From Patescibacteria group bacterium (lineage in GTDB: Bacteria > Patescibacteriota > Minisyncoccia > Phycocordibacterales > PALSA-1337): DNA of 55,056 nucleotides. Shown here piece after piece: positions 8,717 to 41,904 of the stretch. Position numbers and translations under genes: made by a program. Within the stretch, counting starts at the first letter, position 1. Each line of letters opens with the position of its first letter. The notes under the pieces were generated by a model, which saw nothing but the letters and a program-made list of their open reading frames with translations, ran no database searches and was not told where the DNA came from. The stretch covers positions 130,640 through 185,695 of the forward strand of contig JAZKJN010000002.1 in assembly GCA_040384285.1 (NCBI GenBank). The letters run 5' to 3'.

Positions 8717-9166
8717 ATGAGCGCAACACTGATTGCAAACAAGAAAATAGGGCTTGACTATGAGATCCTCGAGACCTTCGAGGCTGGTATTGAGCTGCTC
8801 GGAATCGAAGTCAAAAGTCTCCGCAAAAACCAAGGTTCCCTTCTGGGCTCTCATGTCATCATCCGTGGCGGTGAAGCTTTTATCATTGCCTCTACCATTC
8901 CTCCGTATCAAGAAAAAAATACTGACGAGAGCTACGATCCAAAGCGCAATCGAAAAATTCTTCTTTCAAAAGCAGAGATTCAAAAGCTCGCATCACTTGA
9001 AACAAAGAATGGTTTGACAATAGTGCCTGTATCGATGTATAATAAAGGTAAGAAGATCAAGGTTGAAATAGCTGTTGTGCGTGGAAAGAAAAAGCATGAC
9101 AAGCGTGAAGCAATCAAGAAGCATGACACTGACCGTGATCTTCGTCGACAATTTTCAGATCGTTAA
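8717..9166 (+). CDS. smpB: SsrA-binding protein SmpB
   Basis: EAGIELLGIEVKSLR, RNRKILLSKAEI, GKKKHDKRE; lies directly upstream of tmRNA. Confidence 0.98.
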   Translation: MSATLIANKKIGLDYEILETFEAGIELLGIEVKSLRKNQGSLLGSHVIIRGGEAFIIASTIPPYQEKNTDESYDPKRNRKILLSKAEIQKLASLETKNGLTIVPVSMYNKGKKIKVEIAVVRGKKKHDKREAIKKHDTDRDLRRQFSDR

Positions 9167-9184: not shown

Positions 9185-9591
9185 GGGGATGAAAGGCCTC
9201 GACAGTTGAGGTACTTCCCTATGCGCATTGTAGAGCCCTACGGTCTCTTTAATCCCGTGGAAATCGTAACTGCACAATCAGCAATTACAAAAGTTAAGTC
9301 TTCTGTATCTCCATATTTTGGAGTGCAGGATCTTGCTTTCTCTTACGCTACGGTGTAAGTGACGCTCCGCACTTGGTGTCAAAATGAGTGTTGGAGTGAT
9401 ATAACCTTTGACTAGAAATTCAAGTCCCTTCCCTGCTTGAGTTTTGAAACTTCGGGAATCGCCTGCATATGTTTTGCAAACTTTAGAGTATGCAGGTTAA
9501 AAGAGGGCGACCTCGTGAAAGTCTGATATACAATGTAGAAGCGTAGTGAAACCTTATCTGCACGGCGGTTCAATTCCGCCCATCTCCACCA
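9185..9591 (+). ncRNA. ssrA: tmRNA (one-piece, 407 nt)
   Basis: 5' GGGGATG pairs with 3' CATCTCC-ACCA; T-arm GGCGG-TTCAATT-CCGCC; follows smpB; internal tag ORF present. Confidence 0.95.
9272..9358 (+). other. tmRNA tag reading frame AQSAITKVKSSVSPYFGVQDLAFSYATV*
   Basis: Resume context AATCGTAACT-GCA; 28 codons then TAA; hydrophobic C-terminus. The resume codon is inferred from the usual AACT-GCA context. Confidence 0.75.
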
Positions 9592-11085
9592 TCTGGAAGT
9601 TTGGGCAGAAATGTCAGAGGAGTCGCGCACCGCGACCACGGTTTCAGCCAATGAATTCCAGGGTTTAGTGAAGGAAACGGTTAGAGTTTGAGCGCGCAAA
9701 ATGCGGTTCGAGCCAACCTTTTTAAGAAATGACTTCATTTCTAACCGGTTGTCTTGCAAAGCCCATGTTTCTGCCTCATTTGCCAGCAAAACCCACTTTT
9801 TTAGGGGTTCGAGCCGACTCGTTTTACTCTTCTCCAACATCACGATCTGCTGGTCGAGTTCGACCTTTTTCGGAACAAGTGGGTTTTTCATTTCCTTGAA
9901 CTCTGCGAGGTCAAGGCCGCCGTCTGCGAAGGCGGTATTGAGTCGGTCCAACTTTGTCTTGAGAGACGCCTGCTCCGCGCGTAGCGCGTCAATGCGCTTC
10001 TGCTTTGCCTGAGATTCTTCGCCCTCCCACGTTTCGATTCTTGCAAGGAACCGTTCCTTCCATTTGTTCGGAATGGTGACAAGGCCGACATTCCGCTTCA
10101 CCTCCAGCCCGAACTTTTCCTCTCGCGTAAAGCTGCGGTCCTCGCACGGCACGTTTTTGTTCTTACGCGTGCAACGATAGTAGTGGAAGCGAAGGCCACT
10201 TTTTTTGACGTGCCGTTCACCCGTGATACAGTATCCGCATGACCCGCAGGTTGCGAAATCCAGAAAGGTCAGTTCCCTGTTCCCCTTCGTGTGCCGGGTC
10301 TTTCCGACTTTCAAAAGAGCCGCTTGAATTCTGTCGAAGGTTTCTTTGGAGATGAGCGGAACGTGGACGCCTTGGTGTAATTCGCCCGTGTGGGTGAAGA
10401 CACCGTAGTAGAACGGGTTGCGAAAAATCCTGACGATGGTCCCGAAGGTAAGCGGCTTGCCGCTAAGGTTTCCGACAATCCCGATCTTCTCAAATTCGAG
10501 TTGAATGGCTCTGAGCGAAAACGCACCAGTCGCAAACTTCCCAAAGATAGCTTTCATCTTTGGGAAGACCTCTGGATCAGGTTCCACTGTGCGAAGTTTG
10601 GGTTCGTTGAAGTATCCCATCGGCGCGAGGCCAGAATATACTCCACGGCGAACTTTCTCTCGGATGCCACGGCGGATGTCTCGGGACAAATCTCGCACGT
10701 ATTGATTCGCGATGCCGAATTCGAGCGCCATCATGATGACGTTGTCAGAAGGAAGATAAACACGCTCGAAGGTGCGAATTTCCTTAATCTGCGCTCGCTG
10801 GAGAAGGCCGATGATTCTTCCGCCGTCGTCAAAGTTGCGAGCGATGCGATGAAGCGCCCAGCATAAAATTCCATCCGCTTCACCCAACTCAATGCGTCGA
10901 AGCATGTCGTTGAAGACCGGACGGCCTGGCCCTTTCGCACTTTTGCTTTCCTCCAAGCGATCAACAATGACGAGGCCCTTTTCGAGAGCGATTTGGTTTA
11001 GCTCGGCATACTGAGCATCAATGGAAAGAAGCTGGCGATCTTCATCCTCGCTCGACTTGCGGCAATAAATGAAATACTTGAGCAT
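9412..11085 (-). CDS. Large serine recombinase (integrase); C-terminal 57 aa are read from the antisense strand of ssrA
   Basis: Catalytic YCRKSS, ESKSAKGPGRPVF, HRIARN; recombinase domain GLAPMGY; Zn ribbon CGSCG...YYRC...C; coiled coil. Likely start is MLKYF at 11085 (ORF track starts at 11091). Confidence 0.95.
   Translation of the reverse strand: MLKYFIYCRKSSEDEDRQLLSIDAQYAELNQIALEKGLVIVDRLEESKSAKGPGRPVFNDMLRRIELGEADGILCWALHRIARNFDDGGRIIGLLQRAQIKEIRTFERVYLPSDNVIMMALEFGIANQYVRDLSRDIRRGIREKVRRGVYSGLAPMGYFNEPKLRTVEPDPEVFPKMKAIFGKFATGAFSLRAIQLEFEKIGIVGNLSGKPLTFGTIVRIFRNPFYYGVFTHTGELHQGVHVPLISKETFDRIQAALLKVGKTRHTKGNRELTFLDFATCGSCGYCITGERHVKKSGLRFHYYRCTRKNKNVPCEDRSFTREEKFGLEVKRNVGLVTIPNKWKERFLARIETWEGEESQAKQKRIDALRAEQASLKTKLDRLNTAFADGGLDLAEFKEMKNPLVPKKVELDQQIVMLEKSKTSRLEPLKKWVLLANEAETWALQDNRLEMKSFLKKVGSNRILRAQTLTVSFTKPWNSLAETVVAVRDSSDISAQTSRWWRWAELNRRADKVSLRFYIVYQTFTRSPSFNLHTLKFAKHMQAIPEVSKLKQGRDLNF
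9584..9706. repeat. 123-bp perfect inverted repeat, left arm (last 8 nt of ssrA + integrase 3' region)
   Basis: Base-by-base reverse complement of 11602-11724; flanking bases differ on both sides. Confidence 0.97.
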
Positions 11086-11100
11086 AGACACATTTTACCA
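11086..11100 (-). promoter_or_regulatory. Extended -10 (TGgTAAAAT) 6 nt upstream of the integrase ATG
   Basis: Minus strand reads TGG-TAAAAT-gtgtct-ATG. Confidence 0.55.
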
Positions 11101-11127
11101 GAAGACAAAAGTAATTGCGACCATCAA

Positions 11128-11535
11128 ATGACATTCACGCCCAAAAAAGTTTCTAAACATCTGCTCGCATCGTTGCGAGGCACTTCCCCAAACGAGCGAG
11201 TGCTTCACCGGTTGCATAGCGTTGTGCTTGTGCTCAAGGGATTCTCCTGTTCGGACGCGGCGAGACTGTATGGAAATTCAGAGCGTATCGTGGCGTATTG
11301 GCTCAAGCGCTTTGAGGAACATGGAATTAATGGCTTGCGTGAAGGTGCTCGAAGTGGGCGTCCAAGCACGCTCACTCCAAAGCAACTTCGCGCAGTTCAG
11401 TCCTTCGTTCGGGCAGCGCAGTCGAAGAATGAAGACGCCACTGGACCTTCGCTGGCAGCATTCTTGAAATCGACCTTCAAGGTGTCGCTCACGAAACGTC
11501 AATGCAGACGAATTCTGAACCAGATTTCTTTTTAA
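11128..11535 (+). CDS. Stand-alone IS630-type helix-turn-helix protein (no DDE domain)
   Basis: AARLYGNSERIVAYWLKRFEEHGINGLREGARSGRPSTLT and a second wHTH (SLAAFLKSTFKVSLTKRQCRRIL); no catalytic domain follows. Confidence 0.8.
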   Translation: MTFTPKKVSKHLLASLRGTSPNERVLHRLHSVVLVLKGFSCSDAARLYGNSERIVAYWLKRFEEHGINGLREGARSGRPSTLTPKQLRAVQSFVRAAQSKNEDATGPSLAAFLKSTFKVSLTKRQCRRILNQISF

Positions 11536-11601
11536 CCGGTTAATCTCCTTCCTGGCTCGAAGTCGAATTGTGAGACGAGATGACAGAAGTGATTTATGTC
11601 T

Positions 11602-11724
11602 CCGCATTTTGCGCGCTCAAACTCTAACCGTTTCCTTCACTAAACCCTGGAATTCATTGGCTGAAACCGTGGTCGCGGTGCGCGACTCCTCTGACATTTC
11701 TGCCCAAACTTCCAGATGGTGGAG
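11602..11724. repeat. 123-bp perfect inverted repeat, right arm
   Basis: ccgcattttgcgcgctcaaac...cttccagatggtggag is the reverse complement of 9584-9706. Confidence 0.97.
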
Positions 11725-11773
11725 CATGTTGGAGTTAGCTCGAACCTTTTTCGATGAAAACCCAAGCGCTTGA
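11602..11773 (+). pseudogene. Detached copy of the integrase 3' end with an alternative C-terminus (...SRWWSMLELARTFFDENPSA*), attP-like
   Basis: Translation RILRAQTLTVSFTKPWNSLAETVVAVRDSSDISAQTSRWW is identical to the integrase, then diverges. Confidence 0.85.
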
Positions 11774-12488
11774 CCCATGCAATGACCAGGACTCGAACGA
11801 GCGTGAGGGTATCTCCACACCCCTCCCCGCAGTGGGGACAAGCGTGCATGTCAAAATCTCCTGACTGGTTAATGTTTTCTCTGCGTTTCCATGTGCTTGC
11901 ACCACCCCCGACATCGGTCGGTTTCCGGCTCGCACGGCGCTGGTATTTTCAGCGCGGTGCCGTGCTCGCCTCCAACCTCCCTCGTCGCTCACGCGACCAA
12001 CGAGTTCCCCCGACGGACGGTATTGGAGAATGTGAATGGCCTTCCCTCCGTCGTGAGACGGATCAAAGCTTGGTCACAAGCCTTCAAGGTGAACGCCGCC
12101 GTGTCGGCGGCTGGGTGGTTTCGGAATGCAAATATATTTTGGTCGTACTGTTGGCGATTTAGTTTGTTTATTTCCCGGCTCTCCCGCTCTGCGCCTCGCC
12201 ATCCAGCTTTCACCCCATATCCATCACCACGGTGTCTCTGCGACAACTGCATCACTTGCGCAGCGTGTTGAGGTAAAGGGCAACGCTGCGCTGGTGTGTT
12301 GGTTGGGCGCTCCGTGTGTATCGGAGCGCCCTTTTGTCGTCTTGAATTCCAACCCTCTGCCTGCTCAACATTCTCTCGGCAACCCGTTGTTGCCGTTCCC
12401 TAAGTTGGGGCGCTCGGCGTTGTTTCCGAGCGCCCTTTTCGTTGCCACTCCCCACAGATGTCTGAACCACTGGCGCAACGTCGCGCCC

Positions 12489-12707
12489 ATGGCATTCGGT
12501 GGAGCACAATACTTTCGTCGGCGTGAAGACTGCGTGGCGCGGACCACGCCGGCAGACAGCCCGCATCGTCAGTTCACGATCTATTGTGTGAAGTGCGACA
12601 GCTACATGGTGCGGGTGATCGCCGGCTACAATGAGGAAAGCGGCAGCGTGCAAATCGTGCTGCGCTGTGGGCAGTGCGGGAATGCGGAGTGCGTGGCGAA
12701 CGCCTGA
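12489..12707 (+). CDS. Small zinc-ribbon protein (72 aa)
   Basis: CVKC...CGQC in the C-terminal part of ORF 12126-12707; ATG at 12489 chosen as the plausible start. Confidence 0.55.
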   Translation: MAFGGAQYFRRREDCVARTTPADSPHRQFTIYCVKCDSYMVRVIAGYNEESGSVQIVLRCGQCGNAECVANA

Positions 12708-12710
12708 CGC

Positions 12711-13367
12711 TCAGAGCGAATCGGGAAGCGGTCGCAAACATTCCGGCCCATTGAAGGCTGGCGTGTTCATGCGGCGATCCACGGGATAGAACTCGAACCC
12801 TGTGAGTAATGGCTTTTCCAGAATGCTGCGGAAGCGGTCGCTCTTGGTGTCGAGCCATTCGCCTAGTAAGTCGTCGGGAACGACCACGGGCATTCGGTTA
12901 TGCACGAAGGTTAGCTCGGACGAAGCCTCGCGCGTCACGATGGCGAAGGTGTCCGTGGCTTCACCGCCCGGCTCGGCGTGCGCGTAGATGCCCGCGAAGT
13001 AGATCGGTTTCTCTTTCTGGCGGATGATGCGGTAGGGTTGCTTGCCGCCATTCTCGGTTTTCCATTCGTACCAGCCGCTTGCGGGCACAAGGCACCGTCG
13101 TCCGCCGATGGCTCCGCGAAAGAGCGGGCTGGTGGTGATGCCTTCCACGCGGGCGTTGATCGGTTTTACCTTCGGATTCTCTTTGGCCCAATGGGGAATA
13201 AAGCCCCATCGGAAACCTTCGCCCACGATTTCCTCACCACGCGGGAAGATGACGCCCGCGCGCTGGCTTGGTGCGAGGTTGAAGTTTTTTTGGAACTGGA
13301 AGGCAAAGCGTTCGCCGTGGATCGCCACGCGCATTTCCTCGCCGTTCTGGCTGAAACGTCCGCACAT
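12711..13367 (-). CDS. SOS response-associated peptidase (SRAP/HMCES/YedK family; abasic-site protection)
   Basis: N-terminal MCGRF (catalytic Cys2), NARVE, RCLVPASGWYEW, HNRMPV. Confidence 0.95.
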   Translation of the reverse strand: MCGRFSQNGEEMRVAIHGERFAFQFQKNFNLAPSQRAGVIFPRGEEIVGEGFRWGFIPHWAKENPKVKPINARVEGITTSPLFRGAIGGRRCLVPASGWYEWKTENGGKQPYRIIRQKEKPIYFAGIYAHAEPGGEATDTFAIVTREASSELTFVHNRMPVVVPDDLLGEWLDTKSDRFRSILEKPLLTGFEFYPVDRRMNTPAFNGPECLRPLPDSL

Positions 13368-13370
13368 GGG

Positions 13371-13577
13371 TCAAAGAGGGAGCGCTGGAAAGACCACGCG
13401 TTGCATCTCCTGTTGCGCGGCCAGAAAGTCAGCCTCCGCCTTTTGCCAGCGCTGCACGGTAGCGTCATCAACCTCCACCTCGACAGACGCAGAGTGGGTG
13501 CTTGCGAGATCGGCCAACTCGCCCACGTACCAGAACTGCGTGTCGTCTTGATTCAGGCGAAGTTTCATGGCGAACAA
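13371..13577 (-). CDS. Small hypothetical protein co-transcribed with SRAP
   Basis: Stop lies 3 nt before the SRAP ATG; protein-like composition. Confidence 0.6.
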   Translation of the reverse strand: MFAMKLRLNQDDTQFWYVGELADLASTHSASVEVEVDDATVQRWQKAEADFLAAQQEMQRVVFPALPL

Positions 13578-13795
13578 ATAACGCCGCGCGGGGACGGGCG
13601 CAACGGGAAGCCGGGGGTGCGATCACAGATGTTTTGCCCGATAGCACATCTGTCAAACCGGGTTGAATTAGCGCGGTGCATTCCACATGCGCGCGATAAG
13701 GAGCGGCGTAGGTTTCCCCGTCGCCGTGGGTTCGGTCCATTTCCCACCTGCGACAAACCCAGGCGGGGCCAGATGCGTTGCTGGCCTCGCCACTT

Positions 13796-14332
13796 TTATT
13801 TTGGCAGCAGTCCGATTTCAGGCCAGAGCGGTTCAAGATCCTTTTCGTCCAGCGCGGTGAGCTTCCAATGCTTCTCCGTGCCGTTGCGCTCCGCAACTTC
13901 AAGCGCGGTGTCCAGCCAACTGCGCGCCTCGGCCATCTTTCCAATCTGGCAGTTGTAGCAGGCGAGAGTGAACGGCAGCAGCGGTTCGTCCGGGAAGTCG
14001 TTGATTGCGTCGAGCAAGAGCGCCAGCGCGCTTTCGATGCCACCGGTCGGCATCCTGCGCGCGGAATACGAGCGCCATGCGAACACCTCGGCGTCATCAG
14101 GCAGAAGCCGCGTCAGTCCCTCCGCCACGCTAAACGCCATCTCATGCTTGTTGGCTTGGTTGAAGATCCGCCAGCGCAGTTTCAGCACGTCGGGCCGGGC
14201 GCGCTCTCGCGAAGACAACTGCTCCAATTCCTCGTAGGCGCTCAGGAAATCGCCGAGTTCAATCCAGCCCTCGGCGGCGCGGATGTGCTGCTCAGTGCGG
14301 GCGTCCGTGTTCAATGCGGCGGACGCTAGCAA
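13796..14332 (-). CDS. Tetratricopeptide-repeat protein
   Basis: HIRAAEGWIELG, AFSVAEGLTRLLPDDAEVFAW, LPFTLACYNCQIGKMAEARSWL helical repeats. Confidence 0.8.
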   Translation of the reverse strand: MLASAALNTDARTEQHIRAAEGWIELGDFLSAYEELEQLSSRERARPDVLKLRWRIFNQANKHEMAFSVAEGLTRLLPDDAEVFAWRSYSARRMPTGGIESALALLLDAINDFPDEPLLPFTLACYNCQIGKMAEARSWLDTALEVAERNGTEKHWKLTALDEKDLEPLWPEIGLLPK

Positions 14333-14379
14333 GGCAACGGCGGGCTTGCCAGTCGCGCGTGAACGTGAAGGATTGGCGC

Positions 14380-14967
14380 GTGAAAATCCCCGGCTGCCTG
14401 CTGGCCCTGCTGCTGTCTGTCGTCTGCGCTGTTGGCGCGACGGTGCAGGACTACGCGGACAAGATCGCGCCGCTCATTGATCCGGCCAAACTGGCGGAAC
14501 TTCGGGAGCGTGGAGCAAATCAGCGCGTCCAGAAAATCACCTACTACCTTTACTCCGCCAAAAAGGATCGGCTGGATGCCACCGCCGTTGCCAGAGCGGC
14601 AGTCAAGGACGTGCGGATGAAGAAAGCCGCTGGCGATCTGACGGTGTTAGCCATGATGCGCAACGTGAGGATTGCGGAGCAGTTGGGCTGCACTGATGCC
14701 GCCGGGTTGTCTGAAATGCGCAAAGGCAATGCGGCCACGGTACGCTTTGGTCCTTACGCGGGCGATCAACTCTCGGTGGACCACATCATTCCGTTTTCAG
14801 TCGTGCCGGAACTCGACAAGGTGATCGCGAATTTGGAGTTGATGCCCTCGCGGATGAACTCGAAGAAAAGCGCGAGCGTTGGGCAGCGGCAGCGAGACCT
14901 TGCGACGAAGCTGAACAAGGCCGGGCTGCTCAGTGACGTGGGCTTGAGGGCAGTGGCAAGTCGCTAG
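14380..14967 (+). CDS. Exported protein with a C-terminal HNH-like motif
   Basis: Hydrophobic N-terminus IPGCLLALLLSVVCAVGA (GTG start inferred); SVDHIIP...ANLELMPSRMNSKK. Confidence 0.7.
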   Translation: MKIPGCLLALLLSVVCAVGATVQDYADKIAPLIDPAKLAELRERGANQRVQKITYYLYSAKKDRLDATAVARAAVKDVRMKKAAGDLTVLAMMRNVRIAEQLGCTDAAGLSEMRKGNAATVRFGPYAGDQLSVDHIIPFSVVPELDKVIANLELMPSRMNSKKSASVGQRQRDLATKLNKAGLLSDVGLRAVASR

Positions 14968-15011
14968 GGGCGCTGCATGTTTAGGCGCAACGCCAAACTC
15001 GAACAAACCAG

Positions 15012-16172
15012 TCACAGCTTTTTCAACCGGTAAAAACGGGCGCTTTCCGAAGCGTTGTTCGTGACGAACCATTGCCCCTCACTAAGAACGGGCGGATTGG
15101 TCACATCACCCCAAGCGGCATTCGAAGTCAAAACAAGCGTCGATTGCAGGCAGAACGCGGAGGCATACGCGGGCCAGATGAGAACGACATCGCCTCCGTT
15201 CCACCTCGTCTGCAACGAGACAGGGAAGCCCACCAAGGCAGCAGAATTATAACCGCCGGCGGCCACCGCCGTCACTCCCGTCAAACCGGCGGGCGCTGCG
15301 GTCTGACCGTAGCCGTTAAATCCCCAGGCCACCACGGTACCGTCACCCTTCAAGGCCAGCATGTGCCCTCCTTCATCGCTATCTCCTCCTCCGGCTATGG
15401 CTTTGACTCCGCTTTGCGCGGCCAGCGGCACGACTCTTTCGCCATGACTGCTGGGACCCCAGACCAAAACCAGACCGTTCGATTTCAAAACCGCGCTGTG
15501 CAAATACCCTGCGGCCATGGCCATGTTCGTGAATCGAGCCGAGTAAGGAACCTCCAGCGGCTCGTCGGGATCGTCGCGATTGTCCCCCCACTCGGACACC
15601 AAACCGTTGGCTTGCATGATTAAACTGTGATCGCCACCGGCGGCGATGGCTGTGACTCCGGTCGAACCGGTCGGCCCTGTAACCTGATCATAGAAGTCAT
15701 ATCCCCACCCCACGACCGTGCCGTCGTTTTTCAAAGCGAGACTGTGATCAAGCCCGGCCGCGATAGCCACCACCCCGCCTTGAGCTGCCACCGGGACATC
15801 AGTCTGGCCGTCCCCATTATATCCCCAAGCCACCACCGAACCGTTGGTTTTCAGGGCCAAGGTATGAAAACCTCCCGCGGCAATCGCCGCGACCCCGCTC
15901 TGTGCCGCGACTGGGACCGTCGCCTGACCGGTGTCATTCCGGCCCCACGCCACCACGGAGCCATTAGTCTTCAAAGCCACCACATGCCCGCCTTCGTAAT
16001 CTCCTCCCACGGAAATCGCGATCACGCCGCCCCGCGCCGCCATGGGAACATTCGTTTGGCCGTCAATGCTCCATCCCCACACGATCACCGTGCCCGGATC
16101 GACCGCGAAGGCAGCCATCGCCCCTGTGCATGCTCCGAGGAACGTCATCAATGGGAACCAATATCTTAGCAT
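15012..16172 (-). CDS. Secreted RCC1/BLIP-II-like 7-blade beta-propeller with a C-terminal ...RFYRL domain
   Basis: Signal peptide; repeats AIAAGxxHxLALKxxGxVVAWGxNxxGQ; C-terminal LIWP...LQST...WGDVTN...RFYRLKK. Confidence 0.9.
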   Translation of the reverse strand: MLRYWFPLMTFLGACTGAMAAFAVDPGTVIVWGWSIDGQTNVPMAARGGVIAISVGGDYEGGHVVALKTNGSVVAWGRNDTGQATVPVAAQSGVAAIAAGGFHTLALKTNGSVVAWGYNGDGQTDVPVAAQGGVVAIAAGLDHSLALKNDGTVVGWGYDFYDQVTGPTGSTGVTAIAAGGDHSLIMQANGLVSEWGDNRDDPDEPLEVPYSARFTNMAMAAGYLHSAVLKSNGLVLVWGPSSHGERVVPLAAQSGVKAIAGGGDSDEGGHMLALKGDGTVVAWGFNGYGQTAAPAGLTGVTAVAAGGYNSAALVGFPVSLQTRWNGGDVVLIWPAYASAFCLQSTLVLTSNAAWGDVTNPPVLSEGQWFVTNNASESARFYRLKKL

Positions 16173-16365
16173 CGGGGGTTTATCGTCGGATATCTGTGAC
16201 TACCTAAGAAGGTGAACCATGCTGACGCGTAACGACCCAAGCTCAGCGACTAACGCCGAGAGGCAAGGTGGGGCGCACGAGACGTGTCCAAATTGCCGCC
16301 CCGCTCTTCTGTTCGGAGCGGGGCGGCTGTTCGAGCTAGCACATGTTTGGCCATCGCCTTGGTTG

Positions 16366-17811
16366 TTACTTACCGTCCGGCTGAAATGGTGGTGGATCTC
16401 CAGCGCAGGCTGGTTTGTCATCCAGCGTAATTGCTGTCCGATACGTGGCTAAACGACACGCGGCGGATGGGTGAGAACAAATCCCAGCGGTCGCTTTGGG
16501 TTTCGGCAGGTCGAACAGATTTCCAGCCATCAATCCGTAAGCGAATAGGTTGTAAAGCTGGTCGCCTCCCTTCCGAATTTGCTCGATTGCAAATGGCCCC
16601 CACCAAACACGGCGCTGCGCGACCATCGCTCCCCAGTAGTCCGCTTGCCCCTCACAGGACGCCCACGAATTTTCACCTGGATATTGCGGCGGGCCACCGA
16701 AGTGGTGCCCAATCTCATGAGCAAGCACAAGACCGGCGCCCTCGACCTGAACGTATCGGTGACGCAACAGACCTCCCTTGAGAGCGACATGACGTGTGCT
16801 GCCCTCACGCCACGCGTAGGCGTTTACGGTGTCGTCATTCCAGTCAACATGATAGATAACATCGGAATAGCTCCTCTTGTAGTTTGAGACCAAATACTCA
16901 GCAACTTCGTAGGGCACCGAGTTGTCAAGTGGCTCCAGCAACTCTGCTTTCGGGGTCTCATACTCTGGAGGGAGGAAATTGATCGCTCCCGCTGGTACTT
17001 TGACTGGCTGATACGGCTCAAAGAACTCGTCAGCCGCTATGGTAATTTTGGACTTCAGAAGACTGAGACCAAACGCGGCCTGACCCATCAGTGCGTCCTT
17101 GTGCATCACTCGATACTGTCCCGAACCCACCTGTGGACGGCTCAATCCGGTGTCGAGTCGCTTGGCGAATGTCTGAAGGTAATAATCCGCCGACACAACT
17201 CCTTTGGTGTTGATGAAGTGACCGTCGGCATTGACCTGCTGCATGTCCCATTTCCCGACCGCGATGTGGTGAAATGCCCCCTTGTAGTATCCGGCCACAA
17301 CCGCCTGAATTGAAACGGGCTTCAGACTTGCATCAACCAATTTGTCAGACGGTGAAAGGCGGTCAGCGCGAACCAAGCCCTTGGCCGGCGTCATGAAAAG
17401 ATGGTCAGGCGTGACGAGCAGATCCGTATCGTTTTCAAGCTTCACATAGATGGCGTAATAAATCGGCTTTGGGCTGTAGTGCGTTCCTTGGCTGTACACC
17501 ACTGATGATTTTTGCCATGTTCCGTCCTTTTGTAGAGCCAGAACGGTTTCGCCAACTTTGATGCCGTGAATCTCCTTGGACGCGTTGGCATCGACCGCGA
17601 CAAGTGTTCTTCCTTCAAGGCAGCTGCACTTGCAGTAGCACATCGAACCGTCGGGAAGCTCGAAATAAACCAGTCCGCCAACTGAGTGGCAGACGGCGTC
17701 AATCTTCTTCCGCTTCTGGTTGCATAAGTCCTCTGAGCAAGGGCCAGCTTGAGAGTAGGCGTCTTGGGCAAGCAGCGCGGTTGCGAGGACGGCGAGCATG
17801 TAGGCTTTCAT
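16366..17811 (-). CDS. Secreted precursor: Cys-rich peptide + Hint domain + zincin (M48-like) metallopeptidase
   Basis: Signal aa 1-20; Hint start CLEGRTLV (Cys64), block B TPDH (134-137), end HFINTKGVVSADY; LAHEIGH and EGQADYW. Confidence 0.85.
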   Translation of the reverse strand: MKAYMLAVLATALLAQDAYSQAGPCSEDLCNQKRKKIDAVCHSVGGLVYFELPDGSMCYCKCSCLEGRTLVAVDANASKEIHGIKVGETVLALQKDGTWQKSSVVYSQGTHYSPKPIYYAIYVKLENDTDLLVTPDHLFMTPAKGLVRADRLSPSDKLVDASLKPVSIQAVVAGYYKGAFHHIAVGKWDMQQVNADGHFINTKGVVSADYYLQTFAKRLDTGLSRPQVGSGQYRVMHKDALMGQAAFGLSLLKSKITIAADEFFEPYQPVKVPAGAINFLPPEYETPKAELLEPLDNSVPYEVAEYLVSNYKRSYSDVIYHVDWNDDTVNAYAWREGSTRHVALKGGLLRHRYVQVEGAGLVLAHEIGHHFGGPPQYPGENSWASCEGQADYWGAMVAQRRVWWGPFAIEQIRKGGDQLYNLFAYGLMAGNLFDLPKPKATAGICSHPSAACRLATYRTAITLDDKPACAGDPPPFQPDGK

Positions 17812-18025
17812 TTTCTCCTTTTTTGTTTTGTTGTTTTGTTGGTTTGTGCGTTCTTACGGAAATCCATTTCTTGTTTGTCGTTGTGCGCGTCGGGATGTCC
17901 AACGTCCGAAGTTGGTGGCCCGCTCACCAACTACATGGTAATTCCGCAGCTAAGGTTGCGGATTTTCTTTCACCCCAAGTGACGCCAGTTCTGGCGCCGG
18001 TTCTGCAAGGGCTTTTCCCGGCAGC

Positions 18026-18052
18026 AAAAAGGCGCGACGGTGAGGTCGCGCC
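18026..18052 (-). terminator. Intrinsic terminator (8-bp stem + U5 on the minus strand)
   Basis: Minus strand GGCGCGAC-ctcacc-GTCGCGCC-TTTTT, downstream of 18229-19221. Confidence 0.7.
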
Positions 18053-18228
18053 CTGTCCGCAAAAGAATATCGCCGGGCTTCGCACCCGGCGGCTGTGACT
18101 TGGCTTCCTGCCATGGAGTCGGTTGCCGCGCTAAAAAACGCTATTTTGAGGCATGATTCCCCCCGTTTGGACTAATCGATTGCGTCGACAATTCGACTCA
18201 GGCGAGGATGAATTTCACCATTACGCTC

Positions 18229-19221
18229 CTAGTCAGTTTCGATGTTGCAGATGAGGTTGTGAATTGTTGCTTCACCCGATTGACCGTCGAAAGCGCTCCC
18301 GAGAACCAATTCGAGTTGCAAACGACTCGCACCTTTTGAAGCAGTTCCGTTTTTAGGCGGAATAAATTTGATTGTCGCCGTGGTGGAGTCCGAGGGTTTT
18401 ATCTCAGTTGCTTTTACAAAAAAACCATGTTGCCCGTGATCAGTCTCAACTCCTCTGACCAAGCTGTAATCGCTCCGAAACTCCGCTCCGTTGGCGTCAG
18501 TGATCGTTCCTCTCAAACCACTTTGAGAATCCAATCTCACTGCGACCCAAATACTTTTCTTCTGATTTTGATTCGCGAAGTTCAAGGCGAGCGAAAAATC
18601 GGTTTCGTTTACGATCCGCAGTGATTTCACCTCCACACGCAAGTCTCCAAACGTCTTTGCGAATTTGACTTTTTGCGCGCCTACGTCGGCGTCCTTCACT
18701 TCGCTTGCCGGTTTCGCCAAAAGTTGCTGCGCGGGCAAATCAGCTTTGAATTTGATTCGTGCTGCACCGGCTATCACCGCCGTATCCGTCGCAATGATTT
18801 TGGCGGTAATTTCTACGGACTGGTCCATGGAAACAATAGTTCCCAGAATGAGTGCATCAACGCCTGCGAATTGCCCAAGCTTTTTGGCGTTTTCCGGTGC
18901 CACGAGTCCGGTCGCGGTGAGTTTGTGCTCTGCCAGAATACTTTTGAGGTTAGCTCGGTCGAGAACGGAGTAGTTGGTCTGTTGAAGCACGAGGTTCACG
19001 GTGATTTGCTCGGCCAAGTATCTGCCAAGCTCGCTTGAGTTGCCCTGCAAATCAGTGAAGTCGAGCACCGTCACCTTCTTCTTTCCCTGCTGGCTTACTT
19101 GGGATGCAAGCTTCGTCGTCAATTCGGCAAGTCCACTCTCCATGTTTGCCACCTGCGCCGATACGTTGGGGCAGACGAGCAGACACAAAATCAAGATCAA
19201 GGTGGTCCATTTTGTATTCAT
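18229..19221 (-). CDS. Exported FlgO/CsgG-like domain protein with a C-terminal beta-sandwich
   Basis: Signal peptide; KVTVLDFTDLQG...GRYLAEQI, VLDRANLKSILAEHKL, KKLGQFAGVDALILGTI. Confidence 0.75.
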   Translation of the reverse strand: MNTKWTTLILILCLLVCPNVSAQVANMESGLAELTTKLASQVSQQGKKKVTVLDFTDLQGNSSELGRYLAEQITVNLVLQQTNYSVLDRANLKSILAEHKLTATGLVAPENAKKLGQFAGVDALILGTIVSMDQSVEITAKIIATDTAVIAGAARIKFKADLPAQQLLAKPASEVKDADVGAQKVKFAKTFGDLRVEVKSLRIVNETDFSLALNFANQNQKKSIWVAVRLDSQSGLRGTITDANGAEFRSDYSLVRGVETDHGQHGFFVKATEIKPSDSTTATIKFIPPKNGTASKGASRLQLELVLGSAFDGQSGEATIHNLICNIETD

Positions 19222-19229
19222 GGGCGCGA

Positions 19230-20003
19230 TTAGGGAGTGATGGGTTCAGTCAAGGTGAAGAGCATGTTGGTTTCAGCTGCGATGGCTGCAATGAGTCGTT
19301 CTTCGGCCATGGCACGAGCTTGTGGTTCCTTAAATCCGGCTCCGCTGGCGCTGAACGTCCAGCTGTGGCTTACGGTCGAGCCGGTGATGGCCAGAGCTAC
19401 GATTTCAAGCTGCGCACTCGCGGTCATCACATTTTGTAAATCTGGATTGGTTGAAACTTGAACGCTGTGCCGAGCAAGAAGAACTTGGTCCAGCACGCCC
19501 GCAAGCTCCAGCCGGTCGAGGACGTTTTGCGAGCCGCTGAAGGCGTGCTCAAACATTCCATCCGAGACAAATTCCAAGGTGAACACCCCGGTCAACACAC
19601 TCACTTTCTTGGGGCGAAGGTGATTTGAAATCGCAGTCGCGAGCGCACCATTGAGAATCTTGGCGTCAGTCGCAACGACAACACCAATCGTTGTACCTGA
19701 TTTCGGCGGAAGGTTTGGTCTCACGTATCGCGTCAAGAAAGCCCTGCGCGTCGCTGCGGGGTCTTCGAGCACGGGCTTCACGCTGGGCTTGCTTCCAAGA
19801 AGTTGTTCCCACTCCTTGCGTCGTGATTCCGATTCAGCCCTGGGTCGGGATTCTTGCTCGTTCACGACAACGCGTCGGGGCGCTCTTTCTTCAGACGTCA
19901 CCTGTTGCTGCCGAAACGCGGTCACGCCGGATTTAATGATTAACGCAACGACAAGGAGGCTGCCGACGAACATGAGTGATTTCCATTTTTCAACGGGCTT
20001 CAT
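19230..20003 (-). CDS. Membrane-anchored hypothetical protein, co-transcribed with the FlgO-like gene
   Basis: N-terminal TM; 8-nt gap to the downstream gene. Confidence 0.7.
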   Translation of the reverse strand: MKPVEKWKSLMFVGSLLVVALIIKSGVTAFRQQQVTSEERAPRRVVVNEQESRPRAESESRRKEWEQLLGSKPSVKPVLEDPAATRRAFLTRYVRPNLPPKSGTTIGVVVATDAKILNGALATAISNHLRPKKVSVLTGVFTLEFVSDGMFEHAFSGSQNVLDRLELAGVLDQVLLARHSVQVSTNPDLQNVMTASAQLEIVALAITGSTVSHSWTFSASGAGFKEPQARAMAEERLIAAIAAETNMLFTLTEPITP

Positions 20004-20246
20004 GGGGCCAATGTGCGTGTGTGCTGAGAAAATTTGCCAATGTGCGATTTTCAGGCAAGCACAAATCGTTATGCACAGGACAGCGCGCGCAGGAGTGCGC
20101 TATAATTGATTTGCCTCATTTTTTCCGGACAAGCCTCTATTACCATGCCGGCTCGTAACACGTTTGCCGGCATTCCATTTTGAATATGTTTTTCAAGGTG
20201 CATGTTCTTTCTGGCGGGGTTTCTCGTGGAGTAGGGGCTTGTCTGG

Positions 20247-21512
20247 ATGGAATTTGAAAACGACTACATTACTTTCGGTAATCGACACCAATGGGGGGCA
20301 GAAGTCCCCTGGGGGCTAGATGCGCACTCGCGCCGCCAGCATACCTACATCGTCGGCCAGACCGGCACCGGCAAATCAACTTTGCTTCGCAATCTCATTC
20401 TTCAGGACATTGAGCAAGGTCACGGGGTCGGCCTCATCGACCCGCACGGAGACCTGGCTCAAGACATACTCGACCACATTCCGCCGTGGCGAACGGACGA
20501 CGTGGTGTATCTCGATCCCACGTCAGATGCTCCGGTGGGGATAAACTTGTTTCGTGCGACCGGACAGGATTGGCATCTCGTGGCGGCCGGTATCGTTTCC
20601 GCTTTCAAAAAGATCTGGGGTGATTCCTGGGGGCCGCGTCTCGAATACATCTTGTTCGCCACGCTTGCGGCACTCATCCAGTGTGAAAACACGAGCCTCT
20701 TGGGAGTTTCCCGAATGCTTTACGACGCCCGCTATCGCTCGTGGGTCGTTCGACAGATTAAAGACCCGATGGTGCTGTCGTTCTGGGTGAATGAATTTGA
20801 AAGCTACGAGCGACGCTTCATGCAGGAGGTCGTGTCTCCGGTTCAGAACAAAGTGGGACAGCTTCTTCTGTCGCCGCCCTTGCGTCATGTGTTGGGACAG
20901 GTGGGAACGAAAATCGACTTTCGTTTCATGATGGATCGCCGTCGTATCTTCATCGCAAATCTTCGGAAGGGCCAGTTGGGCGAGACGCACAGCAGCCTTC
21001 TTGGTTCTCTTTTGGTTACGGCCTTTGAAATCGCCGCCCTTTCTCGTTCGGATTTGCCCCCAGAGAAGCGGCAAGATTTCCACCTCTACGTTGATGAGTT
21101 CCAAAACTGCGCAACCGAATCTTTCGGAAGCATTCTTTCTGAGGCCCGCAAGTATCGACTCTGCCTAACTTTGGCGCATCAATACACCGGGCAGCTAAGC
21201 GAGGAAACCAGCAAAGCGGTTTTCGGTAACGTGGGAACCTTGATTTCATTTCGTGTCGGCGAAGCGGACGCCTCGATGCTTGAACGGCAGTTCGGCGGTG
21301 GGTATGCTCGCGCACAATTCACGGGGCTGGAAAACTTTGAAGTATGCGCTCGATTGCTCAACCGAGAGCCGTTCCTAGGCAGGTCTTTGCCGCCGGTTTT
21401 GTCCACGCGAAACCGACGCAAGATCATCCAAAAGCGTTCGCGTCAGAAGTACGGAACGCGGCGCACTCTGGTGGAAGAGAAAATCGAAAAGTGGCTCCGC
21501 AAACGTCATTGA
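20247..21512 (+). CDS. VirD4/TraD-like coupling ATPase (HerA/FtsK superfamily), copy 1
   Basis: HTYIVGQTGTGKS, LIDPHGDLA, LYVDEFQN, LSEARKYRLCLTLAHQY, FGNVGTLISFRV. Confidence 0.9.
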   Translation: MEFENDYITFGNRHQWGAEVPWGLDAHSRRQHTYIVGQTGTGKSTLLRNLILQDIEQGHGVGLIDPHGDLAQDILDHIPPWRTDDVVYLDPTSDAPVGINLFRATGQDWHLVAAGIVSAFKKIWGDSWGPRLEYILFATLAALIQCENTSLLGVSRMLYDARYRSWVVRQIKDPMVLSFWVNEFESYERRFMQEVVSPVQNKVGQLLLSPPLRHVLGQVGTKIDFRFMMDRRRIFIANLRKGQLGETHSSLLGSLLVTAFEIAALSRSDLPPEKRQDFHLYVDEFQNCATESFGSILSEARKYRLCLTLAHQYTGQLSEETSKAVFGNVGTLISFRVGEADASMLERQFGGGYARAQFTGLENFEVCARLLNREPFLGRSLPPVLSTRNRRKIIQKRSRQKYGTRRTLVEEKIEKWLRKRH

Positions 21513-21519
21513 GATTCGC

Positions 21520-22254
21520 ATGACCATTCCACCATTAAATGCTCGGCTGTTTTTCAGCGTCCGCACCCTCATCAATTGCGCCATCATCGGCGCAATCTTC
21601 ATTCCACTAACCGTGCTCTTTCATGGAGTTATTGGTGGCTGGATTGCGACCTTGCTGCTCATCGGCGCCCTCTACTTCCTTTTCTTTAATGTGTTGCAGA
21701 AGTTGCCAGTCACAATTGACTGTCCGCACTGCCGCGAGAACCTCGTTACGAACACACCCTGGGTGTGCGGGGAGTGTGGCAAAACAAACCGGGATGTTGA
21801 CGCCTTTCCTTTTGTCCACCGGTGCTCGCACTGCTCTGCCGAACCAAAGGCTTACCGGTGCCATCATTGCACCGAACTCATTTTTCTCGGAAGCGACCAT
21901 CGGAAACAGAATTTTGCATACTCGCTCGACAATCGGCCTCCTGACCAAACACCGCCGGCTGAGGACGACAGCGTGAAGCAGCGCAAGGCGCGAGAAGCGC
22001 TCATCCACGAGATCAAAATGGCTGAACTGGCCTTCCAGCTTGAAGAAAACAAGCAACGCGCTGAATTCGGAAAGAAGAAAACTCCAGTCGAAGAAATCGA
22101 AATGAGCTTCTCAAAGTTTTACGCGCGTGCCATGGGCTCTCAGGAATTCGCACAGCGCAAACGCGCGGAGGCCGACGAAACTTACAAAGATCAGCCTGAC
22201 TTCCGGAAGCGTGCTCACGAGACGATTGATAACTGGCTTCGAGAGCGGGCCTGA
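21520..22254 (+). CDS. Two-TM protein with multiple CxxC zinc knuckles
   Basis: Two hydrophobic segments then CPHC, CGEC, CSHC, CHHC; directly follows the VirD4-like gene. Confidence 0.75.
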   Translation: MTIPPLNARLFFSVRTLINCAIIGAIFIPLTVLFHGVIGGWIATLLLIGALYFLFFNVLQKLPVTIDCPHCRENLVTNTPWVCGECGKTNRDVDAFPFVHRCSHCSAEPKAYRCHHCTELIFLGSDHRKQNFAYSLDNRPPDQTPPAEDDSVKQRKAREALIHEIKMAELAFQLEENKQRAEFGKKKTPVEEIEMSFSKFYARAMGSQEFAQRKRAEADETYKDQPDFRKRAHETIDNWLRERA

Positions 22255-22406
22255 TTTCCGCAGTGCTCACTTAGTAATTATCTGACATCGGCTATTTCTC
22301 GGGCGCGTTCGCGGTGCGAGCAGTTTTCCGCAAGACAACTTTCTGTTAAAATGAAGCCGGAACAGTTCGTTCCTTAACTTCAACTTCAACCCACAGGAGA
22401 TCAGCA

Positions 22407-23719: not shown

Positions 23720-23734
23720 AACACAGTACCTTAC

Positions 23735-23764
23735 ATCGCGGCGCGTGGGCGTCGCGATTTTAAT
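23735..23764 (+). terminator. Probable intrinsic terminator after the primase
   Basis: ATCGCGGCGC-gtgg-GCGTCGCGAT followed by TTTAATT. Confidence 0.6.
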
Positions 23765-23878
23765 TATCACGAAATCTAATCTTACAATAATCCTCGCAGA
23801 TTCATGAAAGATCGGCGCCTAGTTGGATTAACAAATCACCCCCGGCCTCTGGATAAGGTAGCTGTGGTGGGTACACGG

Positions 23879-41900: not shown

Positions 41901-41904
41901 GAGG

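What the first reader, a model, noticed from the sequence alone, without database searches (positions are those of the whole stretch)
9584..11773. Integrase cassette bounded by a perfect 123-bp inverted repeat: possible flip switch that swaps the recombinase C-terminus and spares tmRNA
Seen: the arms 9584-9706 and 11602-11724 are exact reverse complements. Both end in CTCCACCA, the last 8 nt of tmRNA. As assembled, the recombinase has 502 shared residues (counted from the ORF-track start at 11091) and then a 57-aa tail read antisense through 180 nt of ssrA (RWAELNRRA...DLNF). Flipping the 2.1-kb segment would give a 16-aa tail, SMLELARTFFDENPSA*, leave ssrA intact, stop antisense transcription into ssrA, and point the integrase promoter into the cargo. 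Known: in elements whose att site lies in the integrase 3' end, the partner half-site is normally a direct repeat at the far end of the element. Inference: an inverted, intact attP-like site 2 kb away is atypical. It may be a phase-variable switch of integrase activity or stability, or a retained attP able to capture further DNA.
Basis: partly seen in the sequence, partly recalled or inferred. Interest (0 to 1): 0.85.

Follow-up and report, generated by a model that had tools for sequence, protein, structure and literature searches.

The report
Integrase cassette with spare inverted attP
The 123-bp inverted repeat is real: it arises because this mobile element, inserted at the end of the tmRNA gene, keeps a second, upside-down, intact copy of its own attachment site and integrase gene end, a layout shared by almost all of about 60 informative related elements and not found in my literature searches.

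Summary
Observation confirmed. The arms 9584-9706 and 11602-11724 are exact reverse complements. An independent k=31 assembly of the likely source run shows the arm at twice the depth of the segment between the arms, and both inner junctions are covered. The gene is a large serine recombinase (LSR) whose crossover site lies in its own WW codons (TGGTGG, the complement of CCACCA). Arm A is attL (tmRNA/integrase). Arm B plus its flank is an intact inverted attP that also encodes the conserved native C-terminus. The same layout occurs in 56 of about 60 informative related loci (Verrucomicrobiae, Patescibacteria), including a complete chromosome of a MAG and loci with imperfect arms, so it is not an assembly artefact. 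Single contigs (L004, L005, L038) show the full plan: attR, cargo, inverted attP, integrase, attL. The excised circle would therefore carry twin inverted attP sites, like the yeast 2-micron plasmid. The arms evolve in concert, which implies recombination between them. Actual flipping could not be tested because no raw reads were available. Every contig over 100 kb among the best 120 relatives whose integrase end could be read shows the tmRNA/tRNA-fused state, which argues against a balanced phase switch. I found no published description. Earlier notes of this scan describe the same family.

The parts
8717..9166 (+). smpB (host context, Patescibacteria-like chromosome)
   Evidence: Pfam SmpB, E 2.5e-47. 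The neighbouring FtsH is 87% identical to a Patescibacteria MAG protein.
9185..9591 (+). ssrA (tmRNA), complete; its 3' end is the B half of attL
   Evidence: ARAGORN. Rfam RF00023, 100.8 bits, model positions 1-374.
9584..9591 (.). Core at attL: CTCCACCA, shared by tmRNA and element. The crossover probably lies within the CCA-complement TGG.
   Evidence: Sequence. In L004, L005 and L038 the cores shared by all three sites are TGG, GTGGAC and TGGTGG.
9584..9706 (-). Arm A of IR1: the last 41 shared codons of the integrase (…ILRAQTLTVSFTKPW…SRWW), P half of attL
   Evidence: In run X1 the arm is a separate contig at 2x depth.
9412..9583 (-). 57-codon fused tail of the integrase plus its stop codon, read antisense through ssrA (RWAELNRRA…DLNF)
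   Evidence: Relatives have analogous antisense-t(m)RNA tails such as WWRRRELNPRP and WWSRGESNP.
9412..11085 (-). Large serine recombinase gene as assembled (557 aa from MLKY; the ORF track starts at GTG 11091)
   Evidence: Pfam Resolvase, Recombinase and Zn_ribbon_recom. More than 2,200 homologues.
11128..11535 (+). Divergent 135-aa HTH gene inside the cassette (regulator or directionality-factor candidate; function unknown)
   Evidence: Pfam HTH_32, HTH_28, HTH_29 and HTH_23. The same gene sits beside the integrase in L020 and L104.
11602..11724 (+). Arm B of IR1: inverted spare copy of the integrase 3' end, P half of the internal attP
11717..11724 (.). Inverted core TGGTGGAG of the internal attP
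11723..11773 (+). Native integrase tail SMLELARTFFDENPSA plus stop; also the P' half-site, with GCTCGAAC 5 bp further out than the T-loop on the tmRNA side
   Evidence: The tail peptide is conserved in 23 of 24 spare copies, with synonymous changes. The 5-bp register shift is shown.
11774..12015 (+). Conserved non-coding stretch after the tail (hairpins, including CCGACnTCGGTCGG followed by TTT). It is part of the long inverted repeat in un-recombined copies such as L020.
   Evidence: Alignment A2 with L019, L020, L038 and L104. The 390-nt IR of L020 runs through it.
11725..55056 (.). Cargo: ICE/IME-like island, 44-61% GC against about 46% in the host flank. It carries two T4CP-like ATPases, a Replic_Relax protein, a primase, methylases, an RHS toxin and an ECF sigma factor. 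Its far end (attR) is not in the window.
   Evidence: No inverted tail copy in the window. No homologue of a relative's tmRNA-downstream genes in the window.

Best explanation
The finding is the integrase module of an element integrated at the CCA end of the tmRNA gene of a Patescibacteria-like genome.

Shown:
- The element belongs to a large family of large-serine-recombinase (LSR) elements.
- Their attP lies inside the recombinase ORF at two Trp codons (TGGTGG, the complement of CCACCA).
- They insert at the 3' end of tmRNA or tRNA genes, mostly tRNA-Ala.
- They carry a second, inverted, intact attP together with a spare copy of the gene's 3' end.
- In the integrated state this gives IR1, which brackets the integrase. 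Where the far end is visible it also gives IR2, which brackets the cargo: attL(tmRNA|arm) - int - inverted attP(arm|tail) - cargo - attR(tail|host).
- Integration replaces the conserved native C-terminal peptide with whatever the antisense t(m)RNA encodes.
- The two arms evolve in concert.

Inferred:
- The excised form is a circle of two unique segments separated by twin inverted attP-bearing repeats (2-micron-like).
- The arms recombine, at least by host homologous recombination. A crossover between them inverts the cassette and restores the native integrase end without touching ssrA.
- The fused form is the stable resting state. Flipping, if it happens, is rare. It is a reserve route back to a native integrase rather than a balanced phase switch.

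My odds: layout and family 0.9; inversion occurs in cells at some frequency 0.55; inversion is a selected control of integrase activity 0.25-0.3.
For: - Exact IR and coordinates.
- Real in the DNA of the sample: arm at 2x depth and both inner junctions covered in an independent k=31 assembly.
- LSR domains.
- Family-wide layout: all 16 genome loci tested have the integrase 3' end in an IR of 68-197 nt at 89-100% identity, and 14 of them have it abutting a tmRNA or tRNA. They include L001 (contig titled a complete chromosome of a MAG) and loci with imperfect arms. In all, 56 of about 60 loci with enough upstream sequence show it.
- All three sites on one contig: L005 and L004 and L038. L020 has a 390-nt IR at 96% identity that runs through the core, the tail and about 220 nt beyond.
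- An attR-type junction (…TATATCACTAT|TGGTGGAG|tail) exists in run X1.
- The tail is the native C-terminus. WWC[LFV]Lxx[AV]R[TK]xF[DE]ENP plus stop is kept in 23 of 24 spare copies, with synonymous and CGA/AGA changes. Full-length proteins with this tail exist.
- The tail is a P-type half-site. GAAC lies at +15 from TGGTGG on the t(m)RNA side and at +20/21 on the tail side. This matches the 5-bp rule for LSR attB versus attP half-sites (Rutherford et al. 2013, from memory).
- Concerted evolution: within-locus arm identity has a median of 100%, against 37.5% between loci. Of 224 between-locus differences, 219 are mirrored in the locus's own second arm.
- The insertion is real: a relative with 86% identical FtsH has smpB-tmRNA-next gene with no island.
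Against: - No raw reads or long reads were available. Neither orientation counts nor the excised circle were observed.
- Every contig over 100 kb among the best 120 relatives whose integrase end could be read (9 of 10, the window's own included), and the L001 MAG chromosome, show the fused state. Native-tail proteins come only from contigs of at most 17 kb that begin in or at the inverted arm, or that lack upstream sequence. These may be excised forms or path ambiguity.
- Canonical LSRs do not recombine attL with attP.
- In X1 the 30-mer after the core has two entries but only one exit, and the cargo depth is 8.8, not about 15. The far end of this particular element is therefore not confirmed.
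- Three related loci with ample upstream sequence lack IR1 (L027, L029, L030).
- Whether the fused integrase differs in activity is unknown. The AF2 model is poor overall (pLDDT 63.6).
Confidence: 0.65

Rival explanations
1. Programmed flip switch. The integrase itself, or with the HTH protein, inverts the cassette between attL and the internal attP at appreciable frequency. The population then carries both integrase isoforms as a phase variation.
For: - The sites are in inverted orientation with identical P halves and cores.
- Both isoforms of integrases at least 90% identical occur in public assemblies.
- The swap falls in the middle of a predicted C-terminal helix.
- The arms are kept identical.
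Against: - The assembled orientation is almost always the fused one, including in contigs over 100 kb and in the L001 MAG chromosome.
- Crossover at the core alone would not homogenise the arms.
- Known LSRs pair only attP with attB, or attL with attR in the presence of an RDF.
- No read-level evidence is available.
Confidence: 0.15
2. The spare attP works without inversion. It could be an integrase-binding operator upstream of int (autoregulation), a cis partner that helps attL and attR synapse for excision without a directionality factor, or a live site that captures a second target.
For: - In CPR relatives the spare site sits 100-300 nt upstream of the integrase start.
- The smallest elements (L005 about 3 kb, L038 about 2.8 kb) show no further full-size gene that could serve as an RDF.
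- One CPR MAG has three copies at three tRNA-Ala genes, and one integrase cluster is found at several kinds of target.
Against: - An operator or synapsis partner needs about 50 bp, not 70-390 bp kept identical.
- In this window the HTH gene lies between the site and int.
- None of these functions was tested.
Confidence: 0.12
3. The twin repeats matter mainly in the excised circle. There, 2-micron-like flip-flop during replication amplifies copy number, or two equivalent attP sites are offered for integration. IR1 in the chromosome is then only the leftover.
For: - L020 shows the un-recombined long IR.
- The cargo here encodes a primase and a Replic_Relax protein.
- The geometry equals that of the 2-micron plasmid (from memory).
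Against: - Minimal CPR members show no recognisable replication genes.
- If both attPs were used equally, half of the insertions should show the native state, which is not seen.
Confidence: 0.05
4. Assembly artefact or chimera. Either the contig folds back through a repeat, or a CPR chromosome was joined to another organism's island.
For: - The arm (123 nt) cannot be spanned at k=31, so Logan contigs cannot fix the orientation of the middle segment.
- Some relatives' contigs are obvious fold-backs (L049 and L057, 1.96-kb terminal inverted duplications).
- The island's GC differs from the host's.
Against: - Both inner junctions and both outer junctions are covered at genome depth, and the arm is at 2x.
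- Host, cassette and cargo have similar depth, 4.5-8.8.
- The attL contig contains the CPR-type T-arm.
- The same layout has diverged arms (89-98% identity) in other loci and is present in L001, a complete chromosome of a MAG.
Confidence: 0.03

Closest known systems
Large serine integrases of phages and integrative elements (phiC31, Bxb1, A118/LI, SPbeta SprA, TP901-1; TnpX, TndX, CcrAB)
   Same: - Domain set: Resolvase, Recombinase and zinc ribbon, plus a predicted coiled coil.
- A short common core.
- Pseudo-symmetric attP.
- B-type and P-type half-sites offset by 5 bp.
- Insertion bounded by attL and attR.
   Different: - attP lies inside the integrase ORF.
- The target is the CCA end and T-arm of tmRNA and tRNA genes.
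- A second, inverted, intact attP with a spare gene end is kept inside the element.
- No RDF has been identified.
Mx8 IntP/IntX and SSV-type 'suicidal' archaeal integrases (attP inside the int gene)
   Same: Integration through a site inside the integrase ORF changes or splits the gene product. Sources: Mx8 from memory; SSV-type PMC7253208, listed. pTN3-driven inversions are described in PMC5495485 (listed).
   Different: - Those are tyrosine recombinases.
- They keep no inverted spare copy of the gene end.
- Here only the last 15-18 residues are exchanged.
Yeast 2-micron plasmid (FLP/FRT in two 599-bp inverted repeats) and plastid-type IR genomes
   Same: A circle of two unique segments separated by two long inverted repeats, each holding a recombination site. 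Flip-flop isomers are expected, and the repeats evolve in concert (comparison from memory).
   Different: - FLP is a tyrosine recombinase acting on identical sites.
- The 2-micron plasmid does not integrate.
- In this family neither the circle nor flipping has been observed.
Hin/Gin/Cin invertible segments and shufflons
   Same: - A serine recombinase gene lies inside or next to a segment bounded by inverted repeats.
- Inversion would swap a protein's C-terminus, as with the S/U tail-fibre genes of Mu and P1 or pilV.
   Different: - Those use small invertases with 26-bp sites and a Fis enhancer (or the tyrosine recombinase Rci).
- The swapped gene there is not the recombinase.
- The sites there are not att sites.
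Genomic islands at ssrA (Williams, 'Traffic at the tmRNA gene', from memory)
   Same: An island at the 3' end of tmRNA, with ssrA kept intact.
   Different: - Those islands use tyrosine integrases and restore the gene with a duplicated 3' segment.
- Here an LSR crosses over in the CCA end itself.

Membership tests
Large serine recombinase (serine integrase) family | N-terminal resolvase catalytic domain with the Ser nucleophile motif | tested here: met
   PF00239, E 9e-17, residues 7-151. The motif YCRKSSEDEDRQ is invariant in alignment A1 (R11, K12, S13).
Large serine recombinase (serine integrase) family | Recombinase domain plus zinc-ribbon domain with an inserted coiled coil | tested here: met
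   PF07508, E 1e-9. PF13408 scores 22.3 bits, just under its cut-off of 25.3, but is annotated on most homologues. AF2 predicts long helices at residues 342-446.
Large serine recombinase (serine integrase) family | attP x attB recombination giving attL and attR with a short common core, and P half-sites 5 bp longer than B half-sites | tested here: met
   By sequence only. The three junction types occur on single contigs. The register shift is +15 versus +20/21. No biochemical test was done.
Large serine recombinase (serine integrase) family | Cognate recombination directionality factor for excision | tested here: inconclusive
   No RDF was recognised. A 135-aa HTH gene is the only other gene in the cassette. 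Minimal relatives show no further full-size gene that could be one.
Twin-inverted-attP tRNA/tmRNA-targeting LSR elements (family defined here and in earlier notes of this scan, not in the literature) | The integrase ORF runs across the core (WW codons) into an antisense t(m)RNA gene | tested here: met
   Window. Relatives.
Twin-inverted-attP tRNA/tmRNA-targeting LSR elements (family defined here and in earlier notes of this scan, not in the literature) | Inverted intact copy of arm + core + native tail on the other side of the integrase gene | tested here: met
Twin-inverted-attP tRNA/tmRNA-targeting LSR elements (family defined here and in earlier notes of this scan, not in the literature) | attR (tail|core|host flank) at the far end, forming a second IR around the cargo | tested here: inconclusive
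   It is not in the window.
Hin/Gin-type invertible-segment systems | Small (about 190 aa) invertase with a C-terminal HTH, 26-bp crossover sites and a Fis-dependent enhancer | tested here: not met
   The recombinase has 557 aa with LSR domains, and the sites are att-like. An enhancer was not looked for.
Phase-variable inverton | Both orientations coexist in one population | not testable with these tools
   Only k=31 contigs are available for the runs that hold the locus. The 123-nt arm cannot be spanned.

The most novel reading that the evidence does not exclude
Directionality by DNA inversion instead of a directionality factor.
- Integration through the attP inside the ORF cuts the integrase's conserved C-terminal helix and locks the element in place. 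This would explain why nearly all chromosomal copies show the fused gene.
- The inverted spare gene end plus attP then lets a rare RecA- or integrase-mediated flip rebuild the native enzyme and license excision or a further move.
- The same design, reading the universal T-loop and CCA end, lets one element family colonise tRNA and tmRNA genes in phyla as distant as Verrucomicrobiota and Patescibacteria. Here that includes an island of at least 43 kb, ICE-like and rich in G+C, in a CPR genome.
Probability: 0.2. Interest if true: 0.85.

Novelty: new variant of a known kind. Interest (0 to 1): 0.72.

Why it matters
- Serine integrases are major genome-engineering tools, and their one-way behaviour is normally controlled by a separate directionality protein.
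It would offer new near-universal landing sites and possibly a new way to control direction.
- It also matters for metagenomics. The repeats break contigs or fold them back, and integrase C-termini are annotated wrongly.
- For CPR biology, it shows a route by which tiny-genome bacteria receive large foreign islands.

Tried and rejected
- Assembly artefact: rejected (depths and junction contigs; diverged arms and the L001 MAG chromosome).
- Truncated IS630 at 11601: considered because of the HTH_32/HTH_28 hits, then dropped. The HTH gene is a conserved, complete partner of the integrase in L020 and L104.
- The tail flank as a displaced tmRNA 3' fragment: rejected. It does not fold as a T-arm or acceptor, and it is a conserved ORF end.
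- attR inside the window: none.
- Exact-protein look-up of the host SmpB to find the empty site: not on record. The empty site was found instead through a FtsH relative.
- Counting orientations: impossible, because all runs are kept as k=31 contigs.
- Native-tail contigs as proof of flipping: rejected as proof, since they can be excised forms or repeat-path ambiguity.
- The AF2 model was too poor to say where the tail docks.
The rest of the 218-kb contig and the genome could not be read.
Full report
**1. The observation**

The two arms, 9584-9706 and 11602-11724, are exact reverse complements over 123 nt with 1895 nt between them. No other long inverted repeat exists in the 55-kb window.

tmRNA occupies 9185-9591 on the + strand (ARAGORN; Rfam RF00023, 100.8 bits, full model). 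Its last eight bases, CTCCACCA, are the outer end of arm A. Arm B ends in TGGTGGAG.

The ORF 9412..11091 (-) has 559 aa: 502 residues up to …SRWW, then 57 residues read antisense through the last 180 nt of ssrA. The ORF 11570..11773 (+) ends …SRWWSMLELARTFFDENPSA*. The family's true start is MLKY at 11085.

**2. Is it real DNA?**

One public run (X1, a watershed metagenome) holds 0.97 of the sampled words and is probably the source sample. Only Logan's k=31 contigs of it can be laid, so this is an independent assembly of the same reads, not independent data. Its contigs are:

| Contig | Covers | Depth |
|---|---|---|
| 1955 nt | 9677-11631 (crosses both inner junctions by 30 nt) | 6.9 |
| 123 nt | the arm alone | 13.1 |
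| 54 nt | tmRNA to arm | 9.9 |
| 52 nt | arm to tail | 8 |

Host, cassette and cargo contigs lie between 4.5 and 8.8. At k=31 the orientation of the middle segment cannot be read. The assembled orientation rests on the original assembler.

**3. What the genes are**

- The recombinase has Resolvase, Recombinase and zinc-ribbon domains and is a large serine recombinase (LSR).
- The divergent 135-aa gene at 11128-11535 is a stand-alone helix-turn-helix protein.
- To the left lie smpB and ftsH. FtsH is 87% identical to a protein named from a Patescibacteria MAG.
- To the right, G+C rises from about 46% to 52-61%, with AT-richer islets near 45% further along. The genes there are those of an integrative conjugative or mobilisable island: two coupling-protein-like ATPases, a Replic_Relax protein, a DnaG-type primase, two methylases, an RHS toxin and an ECF sigma factor.
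- A relative with 86% identical FtsH has smpB-tmRNA-terminator-next gene with no island. Everything right of 9591 is therefore an insertion.
- None of that relative's neighbouring genes occurs in the window. The island is thus at least 43 kb long, unless synteny differs.

**4. Relatives**

The decisive evidence is comparative. Seventeen loci from species-representative genomes encode relatives at 42-61% identity: Verrucomicrobiae, Saccharibacteria, Berkelbacteria, Paceibacterota and CPR2. In 14 of the 16 with a usable integrase end, that end abuts the 3' end of a tmRNA or tRNA gene on the opposite strand (mostly tRNA-Ala, also Ile and Val). ARAGORN finds no gene at L003 and L004.

All 16 have an inverted repeat of 68-197 nt that brackets the integrase gene, with one arm being the gene's 3' end. 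Several arms are imperfect (89-98% identity), and L001's contig is titled a complete 5.9-Mb chromosome of a MAG. This cannot be a de Bruijn-graph artefact.

With 80 further metagenome loci, 56 loci show this repeat. Only L027, L029 and L030, plus a partial gene in L086, lack it despite ample upstream sequence.

**5. What arm B is**

The sequence outside the upstream arm is conserved among loci that share only about 40% protein identity. Read in frame with the arm, it encodes WWC[LFV]Lxx[AV]R[TK]xF[DE]ENPxx followed by a stop in 23 of 24 spare copies. There is third-position variation and there are CGA/AGA Arg changes, which indicates selection on a peptide. Full-length proteins ending in exactly this tail exist. 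So the 16-aa tail after arm B is the native C-terminus, and the 57-aa antisense-ssrA tail is a product of integration.

The same flank is also a DNA site. The GAAC of the T-loop lies 15 nt from TGGTGG on the t(m)RNA side in 16 of 21 loci, and 20-21 nt away on the tail side in 17 of 21. A 5-bp outward shift is what distinguishes P-type from B-type half-sites of serine integrases (Rutherford et al. 2013, recalled, not re-read).

Arm B plus its tail is therefore an intact attP. Arm A plus tmRNA is attL.

**6. The whole plan**

Three contigs show all sites at once. In L005, L004 and L038, read with the integrase on the + strand, the order is:

host flank | core | tail → cargo → inverted (tail | core | arm) → integrase → arm | core | t(m)RNA

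In L005 the three junctions share GTGGAC, in L004 TGG and in L038 TGGTGG, so the crossover lies in the complement of CCA. The tail copies form a second inverted repeat around the cargo. This appears in L004, L005 and L010 and in L038, L048, L054, L055, L062, L063, L068 and L074.

Some members are tiny. L005 is about 3 kb, with NusA next door. L038 is about 2.8 kb.

L020 carries the un-recombined form: a 390-nt repeat at 96% identity that runs through arm, core, tail and about 220 nt beyond the stop. That "beyond" stretch is conserved and hairpin-rich, and in the window it is 11774-12015.

It follows, by inference, that the excised element is a circle of two unique segments separated by twin inverted repeats that each hold an attP. 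This geometry equals that of the yeast 2-micron plasmid.

In run X1 a 2,924-nt contig ends …TATATCACTAT|TGGTGGAG|CATGTTGG…. This is the attR junction that the plan predicts, with an AT-rich flank.

**7. Do the arms recombine?**

Over the last 72 nt of the arm in 36 loci, within-locus identity has a median of 100% (28 are perfect), while between-locus identity has a median of 37.5%. In 22 pairs of related loci, 219 of 224 differences are mirrored in each locus's own second arm.

Selection cannot copy neutral changes from one arm to the other. Gene conversion or crossing-over between the arms must therefore occur over evolutionary time, and a crossover between inverted repeats inverts the cassette. 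Some loci in that set are the same element filed in two collections, so the counts are not all independent.

**8. Is it a switch?**

I could not test this. Every run that holds this locus or L001 is kept only as k=31 contigs.

Within clusters of integrases at least 90% identical, both native-tail and t(m)RNA-fused forms occur. One cluster also shows tRNA, tmRNA and other fusions, so a single integrase uses several targets.

The native-tail genes all lie on contigs of at most 17 kb. Those contigs start in or at the inverted arm (L019, L104-L106), or run out of sequence before it, or are of the un-recombined twin-repeat type (L020, L074). They may be excised circles, flipped cassettes or repeat-path ambiguity. 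In L104 (k=141, arm 119 nt) the link from the gene body through the arm to the tail is spanned by single k-mers, so a native gene physically exists in that sample.

Among the best 120 relatives, 9 of the 10 proteins on contigs over 100 kb (the window's own included) have a readable WW junction, and all 9 are fused. The tenth could not be read. The L001 MAG chromosome also shows the fused state. This argues against a balanced phase switch, and against equal use of the two attPs followed by neutral persistence. It would fit a model in which the fused integrase is the trapped resting state, but that is inference.

An AF2 model of a native-tail relative is poor overall (pLDDT 63.6). It does place the WW codons in the middle of a fairly confident C-terminal helix, residues 494-514 with pLDDT 75-89. 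The swap would therefore cut a structural element.

**9. What does not fit**

In X1 the 30-mer that follows the core is entered by two contigs (depths 8 and 7.8) but left by only one. That exit contig has depth 8.8, and the rest of the cargo has 5.5-7.3. The plan predicts a second exit, the reverse complement of the cargo's far end. Possible reasons are tip clipping at about 7x coverage, a minority form, or a different far end in this element.

**10. Comparison with what is known**

This is a member of the large serine recombinases by domain content and att-site logic. It works partly like:
- the attP-inside-the-gene tyrosine systems (Mx8 IntP/IntX, from memory; SSV-type "suicidal" integrases, PMC7253208);
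- 2-micron or plastid-type inverted-repeat genomes;
- invertible segments that swap protein C-termini.

It is a member of none of these. Six completed full-text searches found no description of an LSR element with an internal inverted attP or with tRNA/tmRNA CCA-end targeting.

Earlier AI notes of this scan describe the same layout in several CPR genomes. I saw them after deriving the model. They agree with it but are not independent evidence. New here:
- the clade shared with Verrucomicrobiae MAGs, with its HTH partner gene;
- the tmRNA target in a CPR host;
- the very large GC-rich cargo;
- the concerted-evolution count;
- the isoform tally within clusters.

**11. Verdict**

The inverted attP is real, intact and family-wide. 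Its use as a flip switch is plausible but unproven, and if it flips, it does so rarely.

Noticed in passing
window 11725-55056 versus 1-9591: An island of at least 43 kb, ICE/IME-like, at 44-61% G+C (mostly 50-61%), sits in a Patescibacteria-like chromosome of about 46% G+C. Its integrase is 59-61% identical to those of three Verrucomicrobiae MAGs, closer than to the CPR genome loci (42-46%). This may be transfer between phyla, conceivably between host and epibiont.
   Followed up: partly
window 11774-12015: A conserved, hairpin-rich non-coding stretch follows the native integrase stop (CCCCAC…GTGGGG; CCGACnTCGGTCGG+TTT; GTCGCTCACGCGAC; GTTCACnCACGGACGG). It is shared with L019, L020, L038 and L104 and is part of the long repeat in L020. 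It could be a terminator plus oriT, an operator or an RNA. Rfam finds nothing there.
   Followed up: partly
run X1, contig ending at window 11746: A 2,924-nt contig (depth 7.8) joins an AT-rich flank to TGGTGGAG+tail (attR type). Only one contig leaves that node, and its depth is 8.8. The far end of the element is unresolved.
   Followed up: partly
L109:8295-8310 versus window 9581-9595: In an uninterrupted relative the tmRNA gene ends …CATCTCCACAGAC, with no encoded CCA. In the window it ends …CATCTCCACCA|TCTGG. The element may supply the encoded CCA end of ssrA.
   Followed up: no
L049:1-1960/5655-7614 and L057:1-1955/6229-8183: Two metagenome contigs carry the whole integrase-tRNA end twice, as 1.96-kb terminal inverted duplications at 98.6-99.8% identity. 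These are most likely assembler fold-backs through the element's repeats. It is a warning for binning and annotation of this family.
   Followed up: no
protein clusters of P0052, P0055 and P0043: Integrases at least 90% identical are fused to different antisense targets (tRNA-type WWSRQESNL, tmRNA-type WWRRRELNPRP, and others). One CPR MAG has copies at three tRNA-Ala genes (L007, L008, L015). The family targets many sites.
   Followed up: partly
L004:1827-2089/5643-5905; L005:4442-4613/5638-5809: The cargo modules of small CPR members are bracketed by perfect repeats of 172-263 nt. The cargo could therefore be inverted independently of the integrase module, giving four isomers.
   Followed up: partly
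window 11570-11773 (+): A 67-codon ORF starts at a GTG 32 nt before arm B and encodes the last 57 residues of the native integrase. If expressed alone, it would be a free C-terminal fragment of the enzyme.
   Followed up: no
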